Virus record (IMG/VR): IMGVR_UViG_3300044259_000028
Coordinates: 18,283 to 82,282 of that record
Direction: 5' to 3' (one strand)
Length of the DNA: 64,000 nt
Source: a virus
Lineage: Duplodnaviria > Heunggongvirae > Uroviricota > Caudoviricetes
In this document: positions 1-62,455 of the stretch, piece after piece
How positions within the stretch are numbered: position 1 is the first letter of the stretch
Layout of the letters: the number at the start of each line of letters is the position of its first letter
Translations under genes and position numbers: made by a program
Notes under the pieces: generated by a model
The model's input: only the letters and a program-made list of their open reading frames with translations
Database searches by the model: none
Told to the model about the DNA's origin: nothing

Positions 1-73
1 ACTTGTAGCTGAGACAGATTAGCGTGACCCTGAAAAGGTTGAGAGGATGGTGCGTTACCATCTGAGTGCACCA
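1..73 (+). tRNA. tRNA-Phe(GAA)-like; 5' end (2 nt) cut by window edge
   Basis: D-stem gctg/tagc, anticodon arm tgacc-CTGAAAA-ggttg (anticodon GAA, U33, A37), T-arm gatgg-tgcgtta-ccatc, acceptor 3' tgagtgc + A + CCA at 71-73. D-loop lacks GG and T-loop lacks TTC. Confidence 0.4.
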
Positions 74-86
74 AAGATCAATGTAT

Positions 87-176
87 GTGAGCTAAATATT
101 GGCTTAAGTTAGCGCGGACTGTAAATCCGTAGTCGGCTAGACCGGGTGATTGGTTCAACTCCATTACTTCGTACCA
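87..176 (+). ncRNA. tRNA-Tyr(GTA)-like element, possibly a degenerate tRNA
   Basis: Anticodon arm gcgga-CTGTAAA-tccgt (114-130), variable hairpin, T-arm attgg-TTCAACT-ccatt, ACCA 3' end. The 5' acceptor and D-arm pair poorly (one C-C mismatch, no clean D-stem). Confidence 0.25.
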
Positions 177-181
177 AACAT

Positions 182-268
182 GGAAGATTAACTAGCTAGG
201 GCTAGCACATCCTGCTAAGATGTTGGAATTAGAAATAGTTTGTGGATCAGGGCCACAATTTTCCGCCA
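182..268 (+). tRNA. tRNA-Ser(GCT) candidate, type II, 87 nt
   Basis: Acceptor ggaagat/attttcc (1 G-U), D-stem ctag/ctag with GG in loop, anticodon arm acatc-CTGCTAA-gatgt, 17-nt variable region, T-arm tgtgg-atcaggg-ccaca (atypical loop), G + CCA. Confidence 0.45.
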
Positions 269-405
269 AGTAGGCTTGCTATTTGCTCATTGTGAGGAAA
301 TATGCTTATAGGTTCTCTAGTCCTTAAAATCAAACTAGACGGACAGCCGGGGAAGGAGCGGCCAGATGGATTTAGACGGCACTGTAAAAGCCGAATACAG
401 AACAT

Positions 406-498
406 GGAAGGTCAATCCGATGGCTGGCGACGGAACTAGTCTTGAAAACTAGCGAGCAATGAAATGCCTTAAGAGTTCGATCCTCTTCCCTTCCGCCA
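406..498 (+). tRNA. tRNA-Ser(TGA)
   Basis: Resembles E. coli tRNA-Ser(UGA) as recalled from memory: acceptor ggaaggt/cccttcc, D-arm tccg..cgga, anticodon arm ctagt-CTTGAAA-actag, long variable arm, T-arm aagag-TTCGATC-ctctt, G-CCA. Confidence 0.8.
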
Positions 499-655
499 TA
501 TAAGTATGCTCCTGATCCCTGTTTACGGTTCTACTCGACATACAACTATAGGTTCAACGTAGATTAGTTTGGGCAGCGCACCTTAACGCAAAGAACGTTG
601 TGATGATACTAAAGTATATGACTTTTAGCGTATGGGAAAGAAATACGATTACAAC

Positions 656-731
656 GGTTCTGTAGTTAAACTGGTTATAACTATGGCTTGATAAGCCATC
701 ATTCCGTGTTCGATCCACGGTGGAACTACCA
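656..731 (+). tRNA. tRNA-Ile(GAT)
   Basis: 76 nt. Acceptor ggttctg/tggaact (4 WC + 3 G-U), D-stem gtta/taac with GG loop, anticodon arm atggc-TTGATAA-gccat, 4-nt variable, T-arm ccgtg-TTCGATC-cacgg, A-CCA. Confidence 0.6.
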
Positions 732-742
732 AGAATTCAGTC

Positions 743-817
743 ATCGTTTGAGCCAGATGGGACGGCAGGAGGTTTTGACCATTCTATGAACAGGTTCGAT
801 TCCTGTAAGCGGTGCCA
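743..817 (+). tRNA. tRNA-Gln(TTG) candidate
   Basis: 75 nt. Acceptor atcgttt/aagcggt (2 G-U), D-stem gcc/ggc with GG loop, anticodon loop TTTTGAC (anticodon TTG, like E. coli tRNA-Gln loop as recalled from memory; stem has one G-A mismatch), T-arm acagg-TTCGATT-cctgt, G-CCA. Confidence 0.5.
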
Positions 818-1051
818 TAATATCATTATACCCGCATGTTCCAAGGCTGGCGAATTTGGCTCCAAACCAGATTGTGGTGCGTTCAATTCGATACCGGGTA
901 TGCATACTAGGACACGCACAGTGTTCTGCTGCCAGTAAGCCCTTTTGACCTAATTCGTCGTGGGTGATGCTGCTGGCTAGAAGGAGAGGATAGGAGTAAG
1001 TCTTATCGGATATTAAGCACGGTTGGTTGGCTATAATATTGAGATTAATGA

Positions 1052-1090
1052 AGCCCTGCTAACAAAATGTTAGTGGGGCTTTTCTATTTT
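1052..1090 (+). terminator. Rho-independent terminator-like hairpin closing the tRNA cluster
   Basis: agccctg ctaaca aaa tgttag tggggct followed by tttctatttt. Overlaps the spurious 5' extension of the 1067 ORF. Confidence 0.4.
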
Positions 1091-1102
1091 AGGAGAATTA
1101 AA

Positions 1103-2545
1103 ATGAGTAATGACGTAGATGGCAAGGTTTATGGACCATGCTCCGTCAAACAGCAGATGGTATTGCTAGAAAATGAAGTAGATATCTTATTAACAGGTGG
1201 TGGTGCAGGGGGTGGAAAGACACAATGTGCACTTATGAAAGCACTTAGTTATATCGATGATCCACATGCACGTGTGCTAATTATGCGTGCATCTTACCCA
1301 TTGCTAAAATCGATTGGTGGATTATGGTCAACAGCAATGGAGATGTACTCTGACTTCGGTGCAAAACCTCGCTTCCAAGCCTTAGAGTTCATCTTCCCAT
1401 CAAAGGCTATTATTAAGCTTGTGGCGATTCCTGATAACCTACAAGAGGTACAGGGATGGCAACCTACACATGTACTGTTTGACGAGGCTACAGAGGCTTC
1501 ATTAGATGCTATTTTAGCTGTTCAAGCACGTATCCGTAGTGCAAGCTATAAAGGTCCTAAAATGAGTATGATGCTTACTTGTAATCCTGACCGTAAGAGT
1601 TGGCTGTATGATTGGGTTGCATACTCCCTAGACGAATACGGAGTACCGAAGAAAGGTACTGAGCATATTACACGATATTTTGTCAACCAGAATGGTAAAA
1701 TTCTTTGGGGAAATAGTGTAGAGGAGCTTTATGCAGAGCATGGTAAAGGTAAAGTTTTAGGAAAAACTTTTATTCCATTGAGCTTTAAGTTTATCCCGTT
1801 AACGATTGATGATAACCCTGCCCTAGACAAGGCAATGCCTTCATATCGTGCAAACCTTCTAGCACAGTCACGTGTAAACCAGCTACGATTACTTCATGGA
1901 AGCTGGACAGCAGTTATGGAAGGCAGTAGTAATTTCCGTAGAGAATGGATTAACTTTGTTGATAATCCACCTGTAAATCCTACTTCAAAGGTCCGTAGTT
2001 GGGACTTAGCACACTCTATTCCAAGCGAAGTATATCCCAACCCCGACTGGACAGCAGGCGTATTAATGAGTAGAACAAAGGAAGGCCGCTACACAGTTGA
2101 GCACGTAAAACGTTTCCGAAAGCTTACAGATGGTGTTGTGAATGAGATTATCGACACATCGATACATGAGGATGGTATTTCTACTCCTGTGACTATCCCA
2201 AAAGATAATGGTGGTGGTAAGGCTGCTTCTATGTTCTTCCTAAGAACATTTGCAGAAGCTGGAATGAATACCAGAGGGATCGGTATCACTGGGCATAGTA
2301 GTAAAATGCAGCGTTTCCTACCATTTTGTAGACTAGCTGAAGCAGGGCTTGTAGATATTGTTCGTGGGGACTGGAATGAGGATTTTCTAACAGAGTTAGA
2401 GTTATTTGATGGAAGTAGGAACATTAAGGACGATCAGGTTGACTCTTGTTCCGATGCTTTTAACACATTGGCAAAACAGACAACTGTCCCTACTATTTTT
2501 GTTCCAGATATGACTACCCCGTCCATTTTACCACGTTTAAATTAA
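1103..2545 (+). CDS. terL: Terminase large subunit
   Basis: AGGAG RBS before ATG at 1103. Walker A LLTGGGAGGGKT and Walker B VLFDEATEA. C-terminal nuclease-type region. ~480 aa. Confidence 0.9.
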   Translation: MSNDVDGKVYGPCSVKQQMVLLENEVDILLTGGGAGGGKTQCALMKALSYIDDPHARVLIMRASYPLLKSIGGLWSTAMEMYSDFGAKPRFQALEFIFPSKAIIKLVAIPDNLQEVQGWQPTHVLFDEATEASLDAILAVQARIRSASYKGPKMSMMLTCNPDRKSWLYDWVAYSLDEYGVPKKGTEHITRYFVNQNGKILWGNSVEELYAEHGKGKVLGKTFIPLSFKFIPLTIDDNPALDKAMPSYRANLLAQSRVNQLRLLHGSWTAVMEGSSNFRREWINFVDNPPVNPTSKVRSWDLAHSIPSEVYPNPDWTAGVLMSRTKEGRYTVEHVKRFRKLTDGVVNEIIDTSIHEDGISTPVTIPKDNGGGKAASMFFLRTFAEAGMNTRGIGITGHSSKMQRFLPFCRLAEAGLVDIVRGDWNEDFLTELELFDGSRNIKDDQVDSCSDAFNTLAKQTTVPTIFVPDMTTPSILPRLN

Positions 2546-52593: not shown

Positions 52594-54345
52594 TTAAAAA
52601 TCTTTTGGACCATTCTCAGATAGCCAATCATCTTTGTCATGCAGAGTGTGGCTGCTATTCACATATAGGTAAGCACCGGACATACCTGTGTTACCTGTCC
52701 ATCGGCATTTAGTCATTTTCATGTAAGTAGTGTTACGCTCGATAGGGTCTTCATTCTCTTTATCACGAGTAAACAACAGGTTACATGCTGCACTCTTAAA
52801 GATCGTGGAGCTACCTTGAAAGTCTTCCTCATGCAACTCAGCGCCTGTACTGCCTTGTTTACCTCCACTAGCAGTTTTACGTGTGTGGTTGATATTTACA
52901 AAAGTAACACCATGACTCTTAACAGTGCCTTTGAGCCATCGCTGGAACACAGCTTGTTCCTCATTGGTCAATCCGTCCATCAAATCTTGCAGTGGGTCAA
53001 TAATAATAACCTTGCATTCACAAGTTACAATAAGCTCCATAATCAAAGACTTTACAGAGTCAACTCCACCATCACGATCATCAATGATATGCCAGCGATC
53101 AGAGCCGTCAGGAAGCCTCCACAAGTCTTCCTCTTTACGTAAGGTGTCAGGATGATCTAAGAAGGCCATCTTTTCATCGATACTCTCAATGAGGTCAATC
53201 TTACGCCCAACATGTCGGCTGAGAACTTTCGTCCCATACTGGCCAACATCTGACTCAAGTGACAATACACCAACTCGGTGTGGACTATTAAAAATCCAAT
53301 AGTACACCATCTCATCAATAAACGTACTCTTACCAGTTCCAGACGCACTACCGAGATTCACGATGACGCCCAGCGGAATACCGCCTGCCATCTGCTTCTG
53401 TACTTTGTGCATAAATGGCGGCAAAGGAATCTTAGGAGTTTGTGCAGCTTCACGTACAGCCGATCCTAGACTACCACTACCTACAATACCATCTGGACTA
53501 TAAGCAGGTGCATTAAAGAATGCCTGAATAAATTGTTTTTCTTTACCCTTAGCAAGGTACTCATTAGCATCTTTCAATGCTAATTTCATTACAAACATTT
53601 TCCCTTTCGGGATAACATCTACAAGTTTCTTAATAGCTTCACGTCCGGCTTCGTCATTATCATAACACACAATAATACGTTCTGCTTGATCTAACCATGC
53701 GTATTGCTCTTTAACCTGCTTCCACGAACCTGATTCACCAATGGCACTACTTACTACAGGGGTAGGTTCAAAATCGCTCCCACGGCCCTTACGGTAGTTT
53801 TCAAGCATCTGGTAGCTACTCATCGCATCCAGTTCACCAGCACAAAGCAGGACATACTTAGAGGTATGCTCACGCCATTTCCACTGACCAAATAGTTCGC
53901 TGTTCTTACCGATCTTACCAACGCTGTAGAATTCCTTCACAGGCGTTTTCCTTACCTTGTACCCGGCTGCTTTATAATCCTGTGTGTAAGGGTAAAACAC
54001 TTCACATACATCACCAGTGTCTTCATCGTACTTAAAACGACAGGCATAAGCTTTGTACGTTTCATCTGTGATGCCACGAGACATTTGCCCCTTAACTCCA
54101 GTGTACCCTTTTAGTGTTTCGATTTCCTCTTCTGTGATAATTTCTTTGGTCATAATTTCTGCTTCATCCCATTCGTATTCTTTCATTAATTTTAATTCTG
54201 CCTTGCGAGCATCCGATAGAATTGAACGCTCGCAACTGTAGCAGAATCCACCTTGACCTTCACCATACCAATGGAAGCCATCACTACTGCCACATTTAGA
54301 GAATGGACAAGGATTTTTACCAACTACAAAATCTGTCATTAACAC
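52594..54345 (-). CDS. DNA primase-helicase (T7 gp4-like)
   Basis: N-terminal Cys4 zinc ribbon CPFSKCGSSDGFHWY...CYSC, TOPRIM region, Walker A GSASGTGKST in a DnaB-like domain. Confidence 0.8.
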   Translation of the reverse strand: MLMTDFVVGKNPCPFSKCGSSDGFHWYGEGQGGFCYSCERSILSDARKAELKLMKEYEWDEAEIMTKEIITEEEIETLKGYTGVKGQMSRGITDETYKAYACRFKYDEDTGDVCEVFYPYTQDYKAAGYKVRKTPVKEFYSVGKIGKNSELFGQWKWREHTSKYVLLCAGELDAMSSYQMLENYRKGRGSDFEPTPVVSSAIGESGSWKQVKEQYAWLDQAERIIVCYDNDEAGREAIKKLVDVIPKGKMFVMKLALKDANEYLAKGKEKQFIQAFFNAPAYSPDGIVGSGSLGSAVREAAQTPKIPLPPFMHKVQKQMAGGIPLGVIVNLGSASGTGKSTFIDEMVYYWIFNSPHRVGVLSLESDVGQYGTKVLSRHVGRKIDLIESIDEKMAFLDHPDTLRKEEDLWRLPDGSDRWHIIDDRDGGVDSVKSLIMELIVTCECKVIIIDPLQDLMDGLTNEEQAVFQRWLKGTVKSHGVTFVNINHTRKTASGGKQGSTGAELHEEDFQGSSTIFKSAACNLLFTRDKENEDPIERNTTYMKMTKCRWTGNTGMSGAYLYVNSSHTLHDKDDWLSENGPKDF

Positions 54346-58137: not shown

Positions 58138-59295
58138 TTAACCTTTTTTCAGAAGATATTCATTGCTGATAGCTTTGAACGAGAAGTCACAGCCACAGTT
58201 TTTGAACACCACGCCTTCACGCATCACACCAGCATTATCACCCGGACCCGAGGCGTATGTCAAGCATTTACTCACAACGTCATCTACACTCACTTCACCT
58301 TCTGGCAGGCCCAGTACATCACGCAGAGTGCCAGTAGCCAGAACGGTGACATGGTTAAGGCCAAGGATACCTACAGCCTCTTGACGGCTTGCAGGGCTAC
58401 TATACATCTGTTTATCGATGTTGAAAATATCAAAGATATGGAATTCCACATCTTTAACCTTCTCGTAGTTACCCTGAATGTCGGGAGCAACTACTTCTCC
58501 TTGCAAAGCATAGCTATCCTGTTCGAACTTCGCATACGCCTCCTTCATTGCAGCCAGTACAGGTGCAGCAGCTTTATGGAAATTGCTATCGCCAGTCAGA
58601 GGCAGCATGATGTTACGGCTGCAAATGCCATATACAGGCTCATCAGGCTTACGCACGAAGAAAGCCTTGACCTTCTCCCACAAGGACAGTCGCTGTTTGC
58701 TCAAAGCTTTCGCAGCTTTATAGTGTTCACTTTCAGGAGTCACAATAAACACAGTCATCGAGCTACCATCTTTCTTCATGGTCACTTCGAATTCTTCATC
58801 CAGTGCATTCACAACCATATGGCCGTAGTTCTGGATACGTTCCTGATCTGTCTTAGGAATAAACACAGGGAAGCGCTTGATACCTTGTGCCTGTACTTGA
58901 CGACCCGGAACAGGATTGTCAGGCATTTCCCACTTCTTCACACCCAGCACTTCGGTAACATCGTCACCTTCATTCAGCGAATCACCGTTAGGGACGATGG
59001 ATAATGGCAGTACCAGACCTTGCGAGATTTGTTTACGCAGTTTAATCGTTTTAAGGCGTTCGCCTTTGACACCTTCGAACTCTTTAGGTTCGTGACCTTC
59101 TTTAGTCAGGAACGGGGCTACCTCAGTAGGAACCCATGAGTCGATTTCGAAGTAACAAACCATGTCACCAATAGAGAATTCACTTTTCTTGACGACGACT
59201 GGCCAACCTTTAATCATTGCAACTTCGATCTTGTCAGCGCCAGCGATAGGCAGCAGATCACGAACTTTTTCAATAGTTACCAATTTACGAGTCAT
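58138..59295 (-). CDS. ATP-dependent RNA ligase-like protein (N-terminal tRNA-binding-type OB domain plus nucleotidyltransferase, DraRnl-like)
   Basis: N-terminal LVTIEKV..LPIAGADKIEVAMIKGWPVVVKK OB pattern. Motif I TMKKDGSS (KxDG). Confidence 0.45.
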   Translation of the reverse strand: MTRKLVTIEKVRDLLPIAGADKIEVAMIKGWPVVVKKSEFSIGDMVCYFEIDSWVPTEVAPFLTKEGHEPKEFEGVKGERLKTIKLRKQISQGLVLPLSIVPNGDSLNEGDDVTEVLGVKKWEMPDNPVPGRQVQAQGIKRFPVFIPKTDQERIQNYGHMVVNALDEEFEVTMKKDGSSMTVFIVTPESEHYKAAKALSKQRLSLWEKVKAFFVRKPDEPVYGICSRNIMLPLTGDSNFHKAAAPVLAAMKEAYAKFEQDSYALQGEVVAPDIQGNYEKVKDVEFHIFDIFNIDKQMYSSPASRQEAVGILGLNHVTVLATGTLRDVLGLPEGEVSVDDVVSKCLTYASGPGDNAGVMREGVVFKNCGCDFSFKAISNEYLLKKG

Positions 59296-60800: not shown

Positions 60801-61085
60801 TTATTCAGGCTTAGAGTGTTCCTCACAGCGAGGTCCAATCCATCCACGTACAGTGGTCATTCTACCGGGTTTCGTGCAACGCATGCAAGTGTTATCACAA
60901 ATGTTAGATATACGTGAGTAGTCTAAGGCAAACTCACCATTTGTGTAGATGCGTAAACCACCAAACTTCTCCTTAACCTGCACAACCTCACCACCCATGA
61001 TGCAGTATTGCTTCAGTAACTCATTGAGTTCATCGCCAATAGTCTTACGCCAGCCTTCTGGCAAATAATCAGACCAACGCATCAT
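60801..61085 (-). CDS. Hypothetical Cys-rich protein
   Basis: 94 aa, CDNTCMRC...C...H. Confidence 0.35.
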   Translation of the reverse strand: MMRWSDYLPEGWRKTIGDELNELLKQYCIMGGEVVQVKEKFGGLRIYTNGEFALDYSRISNICDNTCMRCTKPGRMTTVRGWIGPRCEEHSKPE

Positions 61086-62455
61086 ACACCTACCTTTCCA
61101 AGCTTTGCAGCTTCAAATTGTTCGTAAACACGCTCCAAACTGTCAGCAACTTTCTTATCGAAACGTTCTTCAATGAAGACCGGAAGAGACAGACTTACAG
61201 TGTCTTTACCACGTGCATCCATAATGTCATTTGCTTCTACAGCAAAGATAGAGCCAATCAGTGTACCATCAATTGCACGTTGCATCAATACTTTTCGTTG
61301 ATCGTCACTAAAGCCACTACCAACATTGTTTATCAACTTCTTACAGGAAGTACCAATAGTGACACCACCAAGCATACCAGCAGCTTTACCCTCACCTTCG
61401 TACCAATCCAGCACCTCGTATTCGCACTCAAAAACAACCTTGTTCTTGACAGCATCCTTAGTACCAGAGCTTGTATCACGCCATACGCCTTCCATAGTCT
61501 TCCATACGGTGCCTTCACGTCCTGCTTTGGTTTCCTTGATGTGAATTGCGTTAGCTTCAGCTACACTCTTTACAATCTTGCTAAAGGCTAAGTAAATATT
61601 AGGATAGCCGTTGCATTCAAGTGCACTCTCAAGGATGAACTTACGGTCTTTGAGAGGTCTGTCTGACTTGCCAGCTTCAAATTCACTCTCATCAATCATA
61701 TCCCATACGGTGTACTGGAATTCATATTGACTAAACTCACCTTCCTCACCACCTTGCAGAATGCTATTAAGCACACCGTTACCCTCTTTACGAGTCATAG
61801 GAGTAAAGCTATCACCGTTCCATTGTGACACAGTGATTTCGCCCATCATAACATGACTATCAATGTCATGTGCAATTTTCGCTACAAACCATTTCGGGTA
61901 GTAGCTACCCTGTCGAGTAATAGCAGCTTTAGGTTTCAGATACGCAAAGCTACCGTCATATTTTACCTCAACATAGAATTCAGATTTAGATTTATAAAAA
62001 TCTAAGATTTTAGGATTCATACTAGCACAGCGCATATACGGAGGGATGAAGTATAGGTCAGGCCAAGTCTTAAGCACCATAGTATCACCTACACCAGCAC
62101 CAATAGAACGCTTAATAAGTAGTTGTGCAAGCTCAAAACCTTCAGGGGTAAGAGTAGAACACATCTGCATTAGTCCCTGCACAGCGGCTTTACCTGTGTA
62201 GAGCCGTTCTGCGAGAGTTTCTTTCATCCAATCTAGAAACTTTTGATCCATTTCAAAACCAAACTTGTCAGCAGGTTTAGCATTCTTATGAATCTTACTT
62301 TGATAATAATTCAGAGACACGTCATAAGTAGCCTTCATGAATTGTTTAAAAAGCTCATTATCCTTATTAGCAATCAGGATAGCTTGCTTTTCAAGGTTTC
62401 CTTTAGCTGCTTGTAAGCTTTTGACAATTTCATATAAAGATTTTTGAGATTCCAT
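61082..62455 (-). CDS. ATP-dependent DNA ligase (T4-like)
   Basis: N-terminal KQAILIANKDNELFKQ like T4 ligase. Motif I EVKYDGS (KxDG). AAGGAGG RBS. Confidence 0.75.
   Translation of the reverse strand: MESQKSLYEIVKSLQAAKGNLEKQAILIANKDNELFKQFMKATYDVSLNYYQSKIHKNAKPADKFGFEMDQKFLDWMKETLAERLYTGKAAVQGLMQMCSTLTPEGFELAQLLIKRSIGAGVGDTMVLKTWPDLYFIPPYMRCASMNPKILDFYKSKSEFYVEVKYDGSFAYLKPKAAITRQGSYYPKWFVAKIAHDIDSHVMMGEITVSQWNGDSFTPMTRKEGNGVLNSILQGGEEGEFSQYEFQYTVWDMIDESEFEAGKSDRPLKDRKFILESALECNGYPNIYLAFSKIVKSVAEANAIHIKETKAGREGTVWKTMEGVWRDTSSGTKDAVKNKVVFECEYEVLDWYEGEGKAAGMLGGVTIGTSCKKLINNVGSGFSDDQRKVLMQRAIDGTLIGSIFAVEANDIMDARGKDTVSLSLPVFIEERFDKKVADSLERVYEQFEAAKLGKVGV

What the first reader, a model, noticed from the sequence alone, without database searches (positions are those of the whole stretch)
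1..1100. Left-end tRNA gene cluster with non-canonical members and tRNA-like remnants
The first ~1 kb has no ORFs but folds by hand into a series of tRNAs, each ending in CCA.
- tRNA-Ser(TGA) is clean.
- tRNA-Ile(GAT), tRNA-Gln(TTG) and tRNA-Ser(GCT) need G-U-rich acceptor stems or odd T-loops.
- The edge-cut tRNA-Phe(GAA) lacks both the D-loop GG and the T-loop TTC, a co-varying pair that forms the elbow.
- There are also a Tyr(GTA)-like element with an unpaired 5' half and an orphan CTGTAAA anticodon hairpin at 377-393.

The cluster lies in the same genome as an RNA-ligase-like gene (58138-59295), which suggests a defence against host anticodon nucleases or a codon-usage adaptation. The degenerate copies may be decaying paralogs.
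Basis: partly seen in the sequence, partly recalled or inferred. Interest (0 to 1): 0.5.

Follow-up and report, generated by a model that had tools for sequence, protein, structure and literature searches.

The report
Phage tRNA array with hybrid pseudo-tRNA
The first kilobase is the tail end of a phage tRNA gene array shared by a whole group of soil phages: six odd-looking but probably working tRNAs, one dead Tyr/Arg hybrid left by a deletion, and conserved non-tRNA RNA structures in the gaps.

Summary
Window 1-1100 is the last third of a ~3.3 kb co-oriented tRNA array just upstream of the large terminase gene. The phage is an uncultured ~90 kb relative of FelixO1/Otagovirus phages. Two independent assemblies carry the same sequence.

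Default tools call only Ile(GAU) and Gln(UUG), not Ser(UGA). Relaxed ARAGORN adds Phe, Tyr-like, Ser(GCU), Ser(UGA) and a missed Trp(CCA). About 15 related phages share the same gene order.

- **Six tRNAs look functional.** Their orthologues keep the cloverleaf through many compensatory changes, so their odd features are lineage traits rather than decay.
- **The Tyr-like element is dead.** It is a deletion hybrid of a tRNA-Tyr body and the 3' end of tRNA-Arg(ACG). The deletion removed the Glu, Val, Ala and Cys genes.
- **The "orphan anticodon hairpin" and the long spacers are not tRNA relics.** They are conserved structured RNA elements. Element B (546-655) lies directly 5' of tRNA-Ile(GAU) in all 16 sequences found (14 aligned for covariation). 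It covaries strongly, has no Rfam match, and its function is unknown.
- **The RNA ligase gene is real**, and an RtcB ligase lies upstream of the array. The anti-nuclease idea stays plausible but untested.

The parts
1..73 (+). tRNA-Phe(GAA). The first two bases (GC) lie before the window edge. A18/G19 replaces G18/G19, the T loop is UGCGUUA (G55, U54.U58), and it ends ACCA.
   Evidence: Rfam tRNA scores 28.0 bits when cut and 38.1 bits when complete in L020 8521-8592. ARAGORN -ps85/-ps90 calls it. Nine orthologues give 22 pairs, 13 with compensatory changes. A18+G55 co-occur in L020/L040/L042, against G18+U55 in the other six.
83..176 (+). Hybrid pseudo-tRNA. Bases 83 to about 148 are tRNA-Tyr(GUA): 5' acceptor strand, D arm, anticodon arm and long variable arm. 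Bases from about 143 to 176 are the T arm, 3' acceptor strand and CCA of tRNA-Arg(ACG). The acceptor stem cannot form.
   Evidence: The 3' end ACTTCGTACCA, the spacer AACAT and the start of Ser(GCU) are identical to the 3' end of Arg(ACG) in L042. The same 3' acceptor strand is in L040 and L046. The 5' part aligns to Tyr of L009/L052, and the crossover lies in the shared CGGGTGA...GGTTCAA. Relatives carry Glu-Val-Ala-Cys-Arg(ACG) between Tyr and Ser(GCU); this phage has none of them. Rfam gives only 20.3 bits, to tRNA-Sec.
182..268 (+). tRNA-Ser(GCU), a type II tRNA with a long variable arm. Its T loop AUCAGGG is unique among its orthologues. It ends GCCA.
   Evidence: ARAGORN -ps95 calls it. 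There is no Rfam hit at E<=10. Seven orthologues give 25 pairs, 17 with compensatory changes.
298..405 (+). Element A, a conserved leader that directly abuts tRNA-Ser(UGA). It contains UAUAGGUU (307-314), CAGAUGGAUU, and the hairpin 377-393 (CGGC-ACUGUAAAA-GCCG), and it ends AGAACAU.
   Evidence: It is conserved in L020, L040, L042, L044 and L045. The hairpin stem covaries (CGGC/GCCG, GAAC/GUUC, GGAC/GUCC), with 3 of 4 pairs compensatory. No Rfam hit.
406..498 (+). tRNA-Ser(UGA), type II. It has a CAA connector without U8 and a U7.C66 mismatch. Discriminator G495, CCA 496-498.
   Evidence: ARAGORN -ps95 calls it. Rfam gives 31.6 bits to tRNA-Sec. blastn shows 80-85% identity to annotated phage tRNA-Ser genes. 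Nine orthologues give 20 pairs, 11 with compensatory changes, and the CAA/CCA connector is shared by seven phages.
546..655 (+). Element B, a conserved structured RNA directly 5' of tRNA-Ile(GAU). Layout: CUAUAGGUU; h1 556-560/595-599; internal loop ANA/GA; h2 564-592; GUGAUG 600-605; h3 606-609/614-617 with loop UAAA; variable hairpin h4 629-633/643-647.
   Evidence: 14 distinct sequences were aligned. RNAalifold finds 14 pairs, 10 with compensatory changes. 96.9% of cells are paired, 0 of 500 shuffles reach this, and slid controls give 27-55%. Model R1 finds one copy per phage at 66-89 bits, 16 in all, always next to tRNA-Ile. No Rfam hit. Not found in 185,579 bacterial species genomes beyond chance pattern matches.
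656..731 (+). tRNA-Ile(GAU), canonical. Its acceptor stem is rich in G.U pairs, as in its orthologues.
   Evidence: ARAGORN default calls it. Rfam tRNA 55.3 bits. 13 orthologues.
743..817 (+). tRNA-Gln(UUG). Discriminator G and CCA are present. It has one G.A mismatch in the anticodon stem.
   Evidence: ARAGORN default calls it. Rfam 30.3 bits against a cutoff of 29. Eleven orthologues give 18 pairs, 17 with compensatory changes. The closest orthologue, in L049, has the stem fully paired.
828..903 (+). tRNA-Trp(CCA), a conserved non-canonical type. It has a 7-bp acceptor stem (A1-U72, G73), a D arm reduced to two G-C pairs, a 7-bp anticodon stem, and a 5-bp T stem with a bulged A. A 1-base deletion has reduced the encoded CCA to CA.
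   Evidence: ARAGORN -ps90 calls it. In nine orthologues 100% of 189 cells are paired, 12 pairs have compensatory changes, and 0 of 500 shuffles reach this. The window copy carries a compensatory U-A where the others have A-U in the T stem. The CCA deletion is seen against L042.
904..1030 (+). Element C, a conserved trailer after tRNA-Trp. It includes the hairpin 989-1007 (GAUAGGA-GUAAG-UCUUAUC).
   Evidence: It aligns with L042, L045 and L046. The hairpin stem changes to CACAGG/CCUGUG in L045. This was read off the alignment by eye and not tested statistically.
1050..1092 (+). Intrinsic terminator that closes the tRNA transcription unit, ahead of the terminase ribosome-binding site.
   Evidence: A 15-pair stem followed by a T run (L020 9572-9604). 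The same stretch produces the weak Rfam 'trpB', 'NsiR1' and 'freshwater-2' hits.
1103..2545 (+). Large terminase subunit. It is context, and the anchor used to find related phages.
   Evidence: PF03237/PF17289. About 40% identity to Otagovirus terminases. Homologues at 55-90% identity exist in metagenomes.
58138..59295 (-).
   Evidence: PF09414 RNA_ligase 69.7 bits and PF21189 PHA02142 OB domain 101.6 bits.

Best explanation
**What it is.** Window 1-1100 is the promoter-distal end of a polycistronic tRNA array in an uncultured ~90 kb phage. The phage is related to FelixO1/Otagovirus phages and was found in soil and other metagenomes.

**The ancestral array.** In this phage clade the array ran in a fixed order: Thr-Lys-Pro-Met-Asn-Asp-Gly-Leu-Leu-His-Phe-Tyr-Glu-Val-Ala-Cys-Arg-Ser-Ser-Ile-Gln-Trp. 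That gave one tRNA for each of the 20 amino acids, immediately upstream of the terminase gene.

**What the window holds.**
- Six structurally constrained tRNAs, which I take to be functional: Phe, Ser(GCU), Ser(UGA), Ile, Gln and Trp. Their departures from the textbook cloverleaf are lineage traits kept by selection.
- One dead gene, a Tyr/Arg(ACG) hybrid. Recombination between the similar variable-arm/T-arm sequences of the two tRNAs deleted the Glu, Val, Ala and Cys genes, the functional Tyr 3' half and the Arg 5' half.
- Long spacers that are not tRNA wreckage. They are conserved structured RNA elements: A before Ser(UGA), B before Ile(GAU), C after Trp.

**How it most likely works (inferred).**
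- Transcription starts at sigma-70-type promoters upstream of the window. The nearest is TTGACA-17-TAAGAT, about 390 nt before position 1.
- Transcription ends at the terminator at 1050-1092.
- RNase P and 3' trimming release the tRNAs, whose CCA is mostly encoded. The same cuts release A and B as discrete ~100-nt RNAs.
- The tRNAs, with U34/G34 anticodons, suit the phage's AT-rich third codon positions. With two RNA ligases (Rnl-type and RtcB), they most likely keep phage translation going when host tRNAs are limiting or are being cleaved.

**Shown:** gene identity, synteny, covariation, and the origin of the hybrid. **Inferred:** expression, processing, charging, and the selective role.
For: **The cluster is real**
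- Searches identify the tRNAs. One search gives the background rate (6 hits here against 2 in 62.9 kb).
- The same sequence is in two independent assemblies.

**Shared gene order**
- The array has the same order in L040, L042-L046, L009, L005, L049, L050, L052, L056 and L057.
- A cultured relative, Pseudomonas phage PHB09, has 19 tRNAs in the same genomic slot.

**Covariation in the tRNA families**
- Phe: 13 of 22 pairs compensatory.
- Trp: 12 of 21 pairs compensatory, 100% of cells paired, 0 of 500 shuffles as high.
- Ser(UGA): 11 of 20. Gln: 17 of 18. Ser(GCU): 17 of 25.

**The hybrid**
- Its last 11 bases, the 5-nt spacer and the next gene are identical to the 3' end of Arg(ACG) in L042. 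Its 5' two-thirds align to the Tyr of L009/L052.
- The five intervening genes are absent.

**Element B**
- 10 of 14 pairs compensatory, 96.9% of cells paired, 0 of 500 shuffles as high.
- One copy per phage, adjacent to tRNA-Ile in 16 of 16 cases, including where the upstream neighbour differs.

**Element A**
- The hairpin stem covaries.

**Transcription and function**
- Promoters and terminator.
- RNA ligase, RtcB and HD protein.
- Third-position GC is 0.34. The intact phage tRNAs can read about 53% of codons in the window's ORFs.
Against: - There are no expression, processing or aminoacylation data, and the host is unknown.
- Four of the seven elements fail the default ARAGORN and Rfam thresholds.
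- Several defects are specific to this phage rather than the clade. They could mean relaxed selection after the deletion:
  - Phe has U54.U58.
  - Ser(GCU) has the T loop AUCAGGG.
  - Gln has a G.A mismatch in the anticodon stem.
  - Ser(UGA) has U7.C66.
  - Trp has lost one C of its CCA.
- The Phe A18/G55 co-change occurs in three closely related phages, so it may be a single evolutionary event.
- Single-sequence folding of elements A and B is no more stable than shuffled sequence (z = -0.10 and +0.25). Their support is comparative only.
- Element A rests on five sequences, and element C on an alignment read by eye.
- The tRNAs this phage lost would read about 23% of its codons, yet the phage persists. 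The array is therefore not essential as a full set.
Confidence: 0.8

Rival explanations
1. Decay model. Apart from Ile, and perhaps Gln, the elements are pseudogenes: degenerating copies that no longer make usable tRNAs. The spacers hold further tRNA wreckage.
For: - Default ARAGORN and Rfam's cutoff report only Ile and Gln.
- Several defects are specific to this phage: Phe U54.U58, the Ser(GCU) T loop, the Gln G.A mismatch, and the Trp CCA reduced to CA.
- One element is demonstrably dead.
- The deletion shows that this lineage tolerates loss of tRNA genes.
Against: - Every family keeps its helices across phages whose terminases are only 55-90% identical, with many double compensatory changes.
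- The window's own copies form nearly all pairs. In the Trp T stem the window copy itself carries a compensatory swap.
- Anticodons and identity nucleotides are intact: G73 and A1-U72 for Trp, G73 for Gln, long variable arms for Ser.
- The elements are single-copy orthologues, not paralogs.
- Spacers A and B have no cloverleaf or T loop and are conserved as such.
Confidence: 0.15
2. Anti-defence model as the main function. The array, with the RNA ligase and RtcB, exists chiefly to outlast host anticodon nucleases and other tRNA-cleaving defences such as PrrC, PARIS and Retron-Eco7. The non-canonical features make the phage tRNAs poor nuclease substrates. Element A's Tyr-like anticodon stem-loop, and element B, act as decoys.
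For: - The ancestral array covers all 20 amino acids.
- Two RNA ligases and an HD phosphohydrolase-type protein are present.
- Relatives carry Ro60/TROVE with a YrlA-like RNA inside the array.
- Published cases show phage tRNAs evading tRNA-targeting defences, as stated in their abstracts: PMC10264068, PMC11555353, PMC11464382.
- The loop of element A reads CUGUAAA, as in tRNA-Tyr.
Against: - The host and its defences are unknown.
- No nuclease-resistance feature was tested.
- This phage has lost six specificities, including Tyr, and still persists in at least two samples.
- L040 has ACUAGAAAA in place of the Tyr-like loop.
- Nothing shows that A or B is stable or acts in trans.
Confidence: 0.3
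3. Codon-supply model as the main function. The array simply tops up tRNAs for the A/U-ending codons that the phage prefers and a more GC-rich host under-supplies.
For: - Third-position GC is 0.34, and the anticodons are U34/G34 types matching CAA, GAA, AUU/AUC, UUU/UUC and similar codons.
- This is the classical explanation for phage tRNAs, as noted in the abstract of PMC10264068.
Against: - A one-per-amino-acid set is not targeted at rare codons.
- Host codon usage is unknown.
- The tRNA for the phage's commonest Arg codon (CGU, read by ACG) was lost without evident cost.
- This model does not explain RtcB, the RNA ligase, or Ro/YrlA in relatives.
Confidence: 0.3
4. Spacers A, B and C are conserved as DNA signals (promoters, protein-binding palindromes) or only because of recent common ancestry. 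They are not RNA structures.
For: - CTATAG and the GCGC/TGCA loops of h2 are palindromes.
- TATAGGTT recurs three times in the phage, once in a 5' UTR.
- MFE z-scores are about 0.
Against: - Helices h1, h2 and h3 of element B change on both sides while staying paired (37 cells), and controls with the partner slid along collapse.
- Sequence upstream of CTATAGG is not conserved. In four phages it is the CCA end of the preceding tRNA, so there is no room for a -35 element.
- The sigma-70 scan finds no promoter there.
- Element B is conserved between phages whose terminases are about 59% identical.
Confidence: 0.08

Closest known systems
tRNA arrays of FelixO1-like / Otagovirus phages (for example Pseudomonas phage PHB09)
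   Same: It occupies the same genomic slot, between the leftward early genes and the rightward terminase-portal-capsid module. It is a long co-oriented array of about 19-22 tRNAs. The terminase is about 40% identical.
   Different: The gene order differs. All PHB09 tRNAs pass default ARAGORN. Element B is absent from the 25 kb PHB09 locus. The window's clade has no cultured member.
Phage T4 tRNA cluster with the co-transcribed stable RNAs C and D (species 1 and 2); from my own knowledge, not tested here
   Same: Non-tRNA small RNAs are embedded in a phage tRNA transcription unit. The tRNA-processing enzymes are presumed to release them. Their function is unknown.
   Different: No sequence or structure comparison with T4 was run. 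Elements A and B are tied to specific tRNAs (Ser-UGA and Ile-GAU) in an unrelated phage group.
Phage tRNAs as counter-defence: T5 tRNA-Lys against PARIS, T5 tRNA-Tyr against Retron-Eco7, and anticodon-loop variants (PMC11464382, PMC11555353, PMC10264068; abstracts only)
   Same: A large phage tRNA set sits alongside RNA-repair enzymes, and some tRNAs depart from host-like sequence.
   Different: No defence system, host or cleavage was examined here. This phage has lost its tRNA-Tyr. The link is by analogy only.
Rsr (Ro60/TROVE), YrlA Y RNA and RtcB RNA-repair module (Rfam RF02553; PMC7790460 abstract)
   Same: Relatives L043, L044 and L046 carry a TROVE gene with a YrlA-like RNA just upstream of it, inside the array (37-41 bits). 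The window's phage carries RtcB next to the array.
   Different: The window and L020 have no TROVE gene (tblastn) and no YrlA hit. Element B is present with or without TROVE and lacks a stem closing its 5' and 3' ends.
tRNA gene fragments and hybrids mis-called as tRNAs in prokaryotic genomes (PMC9897764, abstract)
   Same: Element 83-176 is a partial or hybrid tRNA gene that a relaxed tRNA finder reports as tRNA-Tyr.
   Different: Here both parents and the deleted interval can be named from syntenic relatives.
tRNAs with non-standard cloverleaves (8/4 and 9/3 acceptor/T-stem tRNAs, PMC5389517 abstract; D-arm-reduced mitochondrial tRNAs, from my own knowledge)
   Same: The Trp(CCA) family departs from the standard cloverleaf yet is conserved and covaries.
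   Different: It keeps the 7/5 acceptor/T-stem arrangement. What differs is a bulged A in the T stem, a 7-bp anticodon stem and a 2-bp D arm. I did not check whether this exact form has been described.

Membership tests
tRNA (Rfam RF00005 / ARAGORN) | Score at or above the curated threshold (Rfam cutoff 29 bits; ARAGORN default) | tested here: inconclusive
   - Met by Ile (55.3 bits), Gln (30.3) and complete Phe (38.1 in L020).
- Not met by Ser(UGA) (31.6 bits, and only to the Sec model), Ser(GCU) (no hit), Trp (no hit) or the Tyr-like element (20.3 bits to the Sec model).
-. Type II and divergent phage tRNAs are penalised by these models.
tRNA (Rfam RF00005 / ARAGORN) | Cloverleaf helices supported by compensatory changes among orthologues | tested here: met
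   Compensatory pairs out of total pairs: Phe 13/22, Trp 12/21 (100% of cells paired), Ser(UGA) 11/20, Gln 17/18, Ser(GCU) 17/25. Ile was not tested by covariation; it has 13 orthologues and scores 55 bits.
tRNA (Rfam RF00005 / ARAGORN) | 7-nt anticodon loop with U33 and an anticodon conserved among orthologues | tested here: met
   The loops are CUGAAAA, CUGCUAA, CUUGAAA, UUGAUAA, UUUUGAC and CUCCAAA. The anticodon is the same in all orthologues.
tRNA (Rfam RF00005 / ARAGORN) | Elbow nucleotides G18 G19 and T54 Psi55 C56 ... A58 | tested here: not met
   - Not met by Phe (A18, G55, U58), by Ser(GCU) (loop AUCAGGG), or by Trp for the D arm.
- Met by Ile, Gln and Ser(UGA).
-. This is a departure from the canonical form. 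It does not exclude tRNA function.
tRNA (Rfam RF00005 / ARAGORN) | Paired 7-bp acceptor stem with discriminator and 3' CCA | tested here: met
   - Met by Phe, both Ser tRNAs (Ser-UGA with one U.C mismatch), Ile and Gln.
- Trp has the stem and G73, but CA in place of CCA.
- Not met by 83-176. In the homologous register only three G.U pairs form. The alternative ARAGORN register destroys the D arm.
tRNA (Rfam RF00005 / ARAGORN) | Mature, aminoacylated RNA in infected cells | not testable with these tools
   Needs tRNA sequencing, Northern blots or acid-gel analysis.
Hybrid or deletion-derived tRNA pseudogene (element 83-176) | The two halves match two different parental tRNA genes that are neighbours in relatives, and the intervening genes are missing | tested here: met
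   - The 5' part aligns to Tyr of L009/L052.
- The 3' 11 nt, the spacer and the next gene are identical to Arg(ACG) in L042.
- Glu, Val, Ala and Cys are absent.
-.
Phage tRNA array of the FelixO1/Otagovirus type | Co-oriented array between the early region and the terminase gene of a ~90 kb phage | tested here: met
   L020/L021 gene maps. Relatives have 85-93 kb contigs. PHB09 has the same layout.
Any Rfam 15 family (elements A, B, C) | A covariance-model match | tested here: not met
   No hit at E<=10 within 269-405 or 499-655, other than a snoRNA match on the opposite strand at E=8. The hits at 1016-1105 are the terminator.
Self-cleaving ribozymes (hammerhead; HDV-like, including tRNA-adjacent forms in phages; twister; pistol; hatchet), considered for element B | The family's conserved core and helix topology | tested here: not met
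   - No Rfam ribozyme family matches.
- By inspection, GUGAUG has an invariant G where the hammerhead needs C3, and no GAA follows h3.
- There is no 3' partner for an HDV-type P2.
- The conserved AUAGGUU lies 5' of h1, where an HDV-like ribozyme needs no conservation.
Y RNA / YrlA, considered for elements A and B | A stem closing the 5' and 3' ends with a Ro-binding site, a tRNA-like domain, and an adjacent Ro60/TROVE gene | tested here: not met
   No TROVE gene in the window or L020. No YrlA hit. Element B has no terminal stem. YrlA-like RNAs do occur in relatives, but at a different position.
Sigma-70 promoter, considered for the TATAGGTT motif | -35 and -10 hexamers at 16-18 nt spacing, conserved among relatives | tested here: not met
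   The scan finds none at 300-320 or 540-560. Upstream sequence is not conserved, and in four phages it is the 3' end of a tRNA.

The most novel reading that the evidence does not exclude
Elements B and A are a previously undescribed class of phage RNAs. They ride in the tRNA precursor, are cut out by the tRNA-processing enzymes, and then do a dedicated job. There are two versions of this reading.
- B is a cis-acting maturation or expression module for tRNA-Ile(GAU). It could recruit or bypass a processing enzyme.
- A and B are trans-acting decoys in the conflict over tRNA cleavage. Element A displays a tRNA-Tyr-like anticodon stem-loop, CUGUAAA.

That B is a real, selected RNA structure is very likely (about 0.85). 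The probability below is for a specific new function of one of these two kinds.
Probability: 0.15. Interest if true: 0.7.

Novelty: new member of a known kind. Interest (0 to 1): 0.42.

Why it matters
- **For annotation.** Default tRNA finders miss more than half of a real, conserved phage tRNA array, and relaxed settings report a dead hybrid as tRNA-Tyr. Comparing gene order across relatives resolves both problems.
- **For tRNA biology.** The clade offers natural experiments on how far a tRNA can depart from the canonical form and still be kept by selection. Examples are the A18/G55 elbow in Phe, the bulged T stem and minimal D arm in Trp, and the Ser tRNA without U8.
- **For phage biology.**
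  - The ancestral array covered all 20 amino acids and sits beside RtcB and an Rnl-type ligase.
  - Relatives also carry Ro60 with a YrlA-like RNA, so the region looks like an RNA-damage toolkit.
  - At least one new structured RNA (element B) is strictly coupled to tRNA-Ile(GAU), and its function is open.
  - These features make the clade a good place to test whether phage tRNA arrays serve codon supply or counter-defence.

Tried and rejected
- **Y RNA idea for the spacers.** Relatives have TROVE genes. tblastn finds no TROVE gene in the window or L020, and there is no YrlA hit.
- **Ribozyme readings of element B (hammerhead, HDV-like).** The core nucleotides and topology do not fit, and no Rfam ribozyme family matches.
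- **Kink-turn, box C/D or sarcin-ricin reading of GUGAUG and the ANA/GA loop.** The partner strands lack the required GA, and one key column varies.
- **CRISPR-repeat mimic.** There are short resemblances: CGUAUAGG and CUAAGAA to type I-F repeats, GUAGAU to Cas12a repeats. But the 'handle' is base-paired in h2, the hairpin sequence varies, and the G of GUAGAU varies. This was judged by eye only.
- **TATAGGTT as a promoter.** There is no conserved -35 element.
- **A micro-ORF starting at the AUG in GUGAUG.** Lengths and sequences are not conserved, and the changes follow pairing rather than codons.
- **Element B pairing with the tRNA-Ile acceptor strand through AAGAAC.** The tRNA strand varies while the motif does not.
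- **Derivation of B from the spacer upstream of tRNA-Ile in bacterial rRNA operons.** A pattern scan of 185,579 bacterial species genomes gave only matches of 22.8 bits or less.
- **Single-sequence thermodynamics.** Uninformative for A and B, with z about 0.
- **First pattern scan.** It was mis-specified, with NNNNN instead of NNNN, and wasted one scan.
- **The degenerate tRNA-like element at 42696-42766(-) as an orthologue of the tRNA-Arg(UCU) at that position in relatives.** No convincing alignment.
- **blastn against cultured phages.** Only the Ser(UGA) gene matches.

Full report

ARAGORN at default settings finds only tRNA-Ile(GAU) at 656-731 and tRNA-Gln(UUG) at 743-817 in the first kilobase. 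Rfam at its curated cutoff finds the same two, at 55.3 and 30.3 bits.

With permissive thresholds, Infernal adds three more:
- the edge-cut Phe(GAA), 28.0 bits;
- Ser(UGA), 31.6 bits, and only against the tRNA-Sec model;
- a Tyr-like element, 20.3 bits.

Relaxed ARAGORN (-ps95 to -ps85) gives seven tandem, same-strand genes: Phe 1-73, Tyr 87-176, Ser(GCU) 182-268, Ser(UGA) 406-498, Ile, Gln, and Trp(CCA) at 828-903.

The relaxed calls are not noise. At -ps90 there are 6 hits in these 1.1 kb against 2 in the other 62.9 kb. No ORF longer than 72 aa lies here.

The large terminase protein (1103-2545) is encoded identically on two Logan contigs from different runs. Their DNA matches the window with 0 mismatches in 7.7 kb and 1 in 12.5 kb. 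The odd sequences are therefore real, not assembly errors.

These contigs extend 8.5 kb to the left. They show that the window cuts through a 3.3 kb array of 18-19 tRNA-like genes. With its two missing bases restored, Phe scores 38.1 bits.

Ile is the clean one, and Ser(UGA) falls below threshold.

**2. What kind of phage, and is the array shared?**

The terminase is about 40% identical to those of Pseudomonas Otagovirus phages. PHB09 has the same layout, with 19 tRNAs between the leftward early genes and the terminase.

Much closer uncultured relatives exist, with terminase identity of 55-90% and contigs of 85-93 kb. I fetched the upstream regions of about 15 of them.

They share one gene order: Thr-Lys-Pro-Met-Asn-Asp-Gly-Leu(UAG)-[TROVE in some]-Leu(UAA)-His-Phe-Tyr-Glu-Val-Ala-Cys-Arg(ACG)-Ser(GCU)-Ser(UGA)-Ile-Gln-Trp-terminase. 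That is one tRNA for each of the 20 amino acids.

In every one of these phages, several members are found only at relaxed thresholds. Low scores are a property of the clade, not of this genome.

**3. Are the odd members functional tRNAs or decaying copies?**

They are single-copy orthologues, not paralogs. Consensus folding of each orthologue set recovers the cloverleaf with many compensatory changes:

| tRNA | Compensatory pairs / total pairs |
|---|---|
| Phe | 13 / 22 |
| Ser(UGA) | 11 / 20 |
| Gln | 17 / 18 |
| Ser(GCU) | 17 / 25 |
| Trp | 12 / 21 |

Notes on individual tRNAs:

- **Phe.** The window copy has AG instead of G18G19, and its T loop is UGCGUUA. Across nine orthologues, A18 occurs with G55 in three phages, and G18 with U55 in the other six. 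This fits a compensated elbow pair, but it may reflect a single event. G19 and C56 are retained.
- **Ser(UGA).** The acceptor-to-D-arm connector is CAA or CCA, with no U8, in seven phages.
- **Trp.**
  - This is a conserved non-canonical tRNA. It has a 7-bp acceptor stem with A1-U72 and G73, a D arm of only two G-C pairs, a 7-bp anticodon stem, and a T stem with a bulged A.
  - With that structure, all 189 cells are paired and no shuffle out of 500 reaches this.
  - The window copy has a compensatory U-A where the others have A-U.
  - Its CCA has lost one C relative to L042.

Some departures are specific to this phage:
- U54.U58 in Phe;
- the T loop AUCAGGG in Ser(GCU);
- a G.A mismatch in the Gln anticodon stem, where the L049 orthologue is fully paired;
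- U7.C66 in Ser(UGA).

I read these as tolerated variation or mild relaxation of selection. I cannot exclude that one or two copies are impaired.

**4. The Tyr-like element is a deletion hybrid.**

- Its D arm, anticodon arm and variable arm align with the tRNA-Tyr of L009 and L052.
- Its last 11 bases (ACTTCGTACCA), the 5-nt spacer AACAT and the start of Ser(GCU) are identical to the 3' end of tRNA-Arg(ACG) in L042. The same 3' acceptor strand is in L040 and L046.
- Its T arm matches Arg(ACG) of L043 and L046.
- The crossover lies in a stretch the two parents share (CGGGTGA...GGTTCAA, about window 143-149).

In relatives, Glu, Val, Ala, Cys and Arg(ACG) lie between Tyr and Ser(GCU). Here they are gone.

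This explains the 'unpaired 5' half'. A Tyr 5' acceptor strand faces an Arg 3' acceptor strand, and only three G.U pairs can form. ARAGORN's alternative register sacrifices the D arm.

The element is best called a pseudogene. The lost tRNAs would read about 23% of the codons in the window's ORFs, so this phage now depends on its host for them.

**5. The spacers are conserved structured RNAs, not tRNA remnants.**

*Element B (546-655)*

- It was found as 14 distinct sequences, and later 16.
- Its layout is: (C)UAUAGGUU, helix h1, an ANA/GA internal loop, hairpin h2, GUGAUG, hairpin h3 (loop UAAN), then a variable hairpin h4 with a purine-rich loop.
- Ten of 14 pairs show compensatory changes and 96.9% of cells are paired.
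- No shuffle out of 500 reaches the observed values, and controls with the partner slid along give 27-55% paired.
- A covariance model finds exactly one copy per phage, at 66-89 bits. The copy is always immediately 5' of tRNA-Ile(GAU), including where the upstream neighbour is Arg(ACG) (L076) or no tRNA at all (L056).
- In four phages B starts 2 nt after the CCA of the preceding tRNA. tRNA processing would therefore release it as a discrete RNA.
- It has no Rfam match and is absent from PHB09. A pattern scan of bacterial genomes gave only chance-level hits.

*Element A (about 298-405)*

- It abuts tRNA-Ser(UGA) in five phages.
- The loop reads CUGUAAA, as in tRNA-Tyr, but L040 has ACUAGAAAA.

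*Element C*

A third conserved stretch follows Trp.

*Caveats*

Single-sequence folding energies of A and B are unremarkable, so the evidence for them is comparative. Their functions are unknown. Section 8 lists the readings I rejected.

**6. How the locus most likely works.**

- Sigma-70-type promoters lie in the upstream part of the array. The nearest is about 390 nt before window position 1. None lies within 1-1000.
- A strong intrinsic terminator at 1050-1092 precedes the terminase ribosome-binding site.
- The window's genes are therefore probably the distal part of one precursor: Leu-His-Phe-hybrid-Ser-A-Ser-B-Ile-Gln-Trp-C.
- RNase P and 3' trimming would cut this precursor. CCA is encoded in all the tRNAs except Trp.
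- The phage prefers A/U-ending codons (third-position GC 0.34), which the U34/G34 anticodons suit. The intact set reads about 53% of codons.

The phage also encodes:
- an ATP-dependent DNA ligase;
- RtcB and an HD-domain protein, just left of the array.

Three relatives carry Ro60/TROVE with a YrlA-like RNA inside the array.

This setting favours a role in keeping translation going when tRNAs are damaged or depleted, as published for other phages (PMC10264068, PMC11555353, PMC11464382, from their abstracts). Nothing here tests that. Plain codon supply remains a live alternative.

**7. Comparison with known systems, and novelty.**

The array is a new member of a known kind. Phage tRNA arrays are known, including arrays with embedded non-tRNA RNAs. 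T4 is an example from my own knowledge, and the YrlA-like RNAs in relatives are shown here.

What is new in detail:
- the documented Tyr/Arg hybrid;
- the conserved atypical tRNA-Trp;
- element B, a structured RNA with no Rfam family, strictly coupled to tRNA-Ile(GAU).

**8. What I tried that led nowhere.**

- I rejected these readings of element B: Y RNA, hammerhead, HDV-like ribozyme, kink-turn, CRISPR-repeat mimic, promoter, and micro-ORF.
- blastn to cultured phages matched only the Ser(UGA) gene.
- One pattern scan was mis-specified and wasted.
- I could not align the degenerate minus-strand tRNA-like element with the tRNA-Arg(UCU) found at that position in relatives.

**Verdict.**

- 'Decaying paralogs' is wrong, except for one deletion hybrid.
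- The anti-nuclease idea is plausible but untested.
- Overall interest is moderate.

Noticed in passing
window 43558-43647 (-): A 90-nt tRNA-like gene. It scores 39 bits on Rfam tRNA, above the cutoff of 29, but the cutoff-mode scan missed it. It has a perfect T arm, a long variable arm and an ACCA end. Its 'anticodon arm' is GAUC-GUAA-GAUC, a 4-bp stem with a GNRA-type tetraloop, so it cannot decode. It lies between a sigma-70 promoter (TTGACA-17-TAATAT) and the ribosome-binding site of ORF 42903-43526(-). Four relatives have only a small hairpin at this position.
   Followed up: partly
window 42696-42766 (-) and 42383-42468 (-): ARAGORN at default settings calls tRNA-Lys(CUU) at 42696-42766. 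It has good T and anticodon arms but a mostly unpaired acceptor stem and no CCA, and Rfam gives no tRNA hit. A weak tRNA-Sec-like hit (18 bits) lies at 42383-42468. Relatives have a canonical tRNA-Arg(UCU) (61-66 bits) downstream of the homologous ORF, and I could not align the two.
   Followed up: partly
L043 1290-1419, L044 1371-1476, L046 2236-2344 (related phages): YrlA-like Y RNA hits (37-41 bits, below the cutoff of 69; E about 1e-4 to 1e-5) lie immediately 5' of a Ro60/TROVE gene inside the tRNA array. The window's phage has neither.
   Followed up: partly
L020 1963-4600 (same phage, 4-6.5 kb left of window position 1): RtcB RNA ligase (408 bits), an HNH/NUMOD4 endonuclease and an HD_4-domain protein lie on the minus strand, next to the array.
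   Followed up: partly
L020 6865-6939 (same phage, outside the window): A tRNA that scores well (50.2 bits) but whose anticodon loop has 6 or 8 nt (CCTGAA-CTGTGT-TTCAGG). ARAGORN reports it as 'tRNA-?(Thr|His)'. Its identity is unclear.
   Followed up: no
L020 5822-5852: A third copy of UAUAGGUU lies in the 5' UTR of the first rightward gene (118 aa). Here it forms the hairpin AGGUUA-UUUAUAAG-UAACCU, followed by UAAGAAC. Both short motifs also occur in element B. The octamer occurs nowhere else in the 64 kb window apart from elements A and B.
   Followed up: partly
window 904-1030 (hairpin 989-1007): A conserved trailer (element C) follows tRNA-Trp. It is shared with L042, L045 and L046, and includes a hairpin with an AG(U/C)AAG-type loop whose stem changes on both sides.
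   Followed up: partly
L045 1433-3222, L045 4947-6011, L042 2501-5683 (related phages): Endonuclease-like ORFs (HNH/NUMOD4, PDDEXK_5, DUF723) are inserted between tRNA genes in relatives. This suggests the arrays are hot spots for mobile insertions and rearrangement.
   Followed up: no
window 61082-62455 (-) and 52594-54345 (-): An ATP-dependent DNA ligase and a primase-helicase (Toprim + DnaB-like) lie in the leftward replication module, near the RNA ligase.
   Followed up: no
window 4712: This is the only base that differs between the window and Logan contig L020 over 12.5 kb. L021 is identical over 7.7 kb.
   Followed up: no
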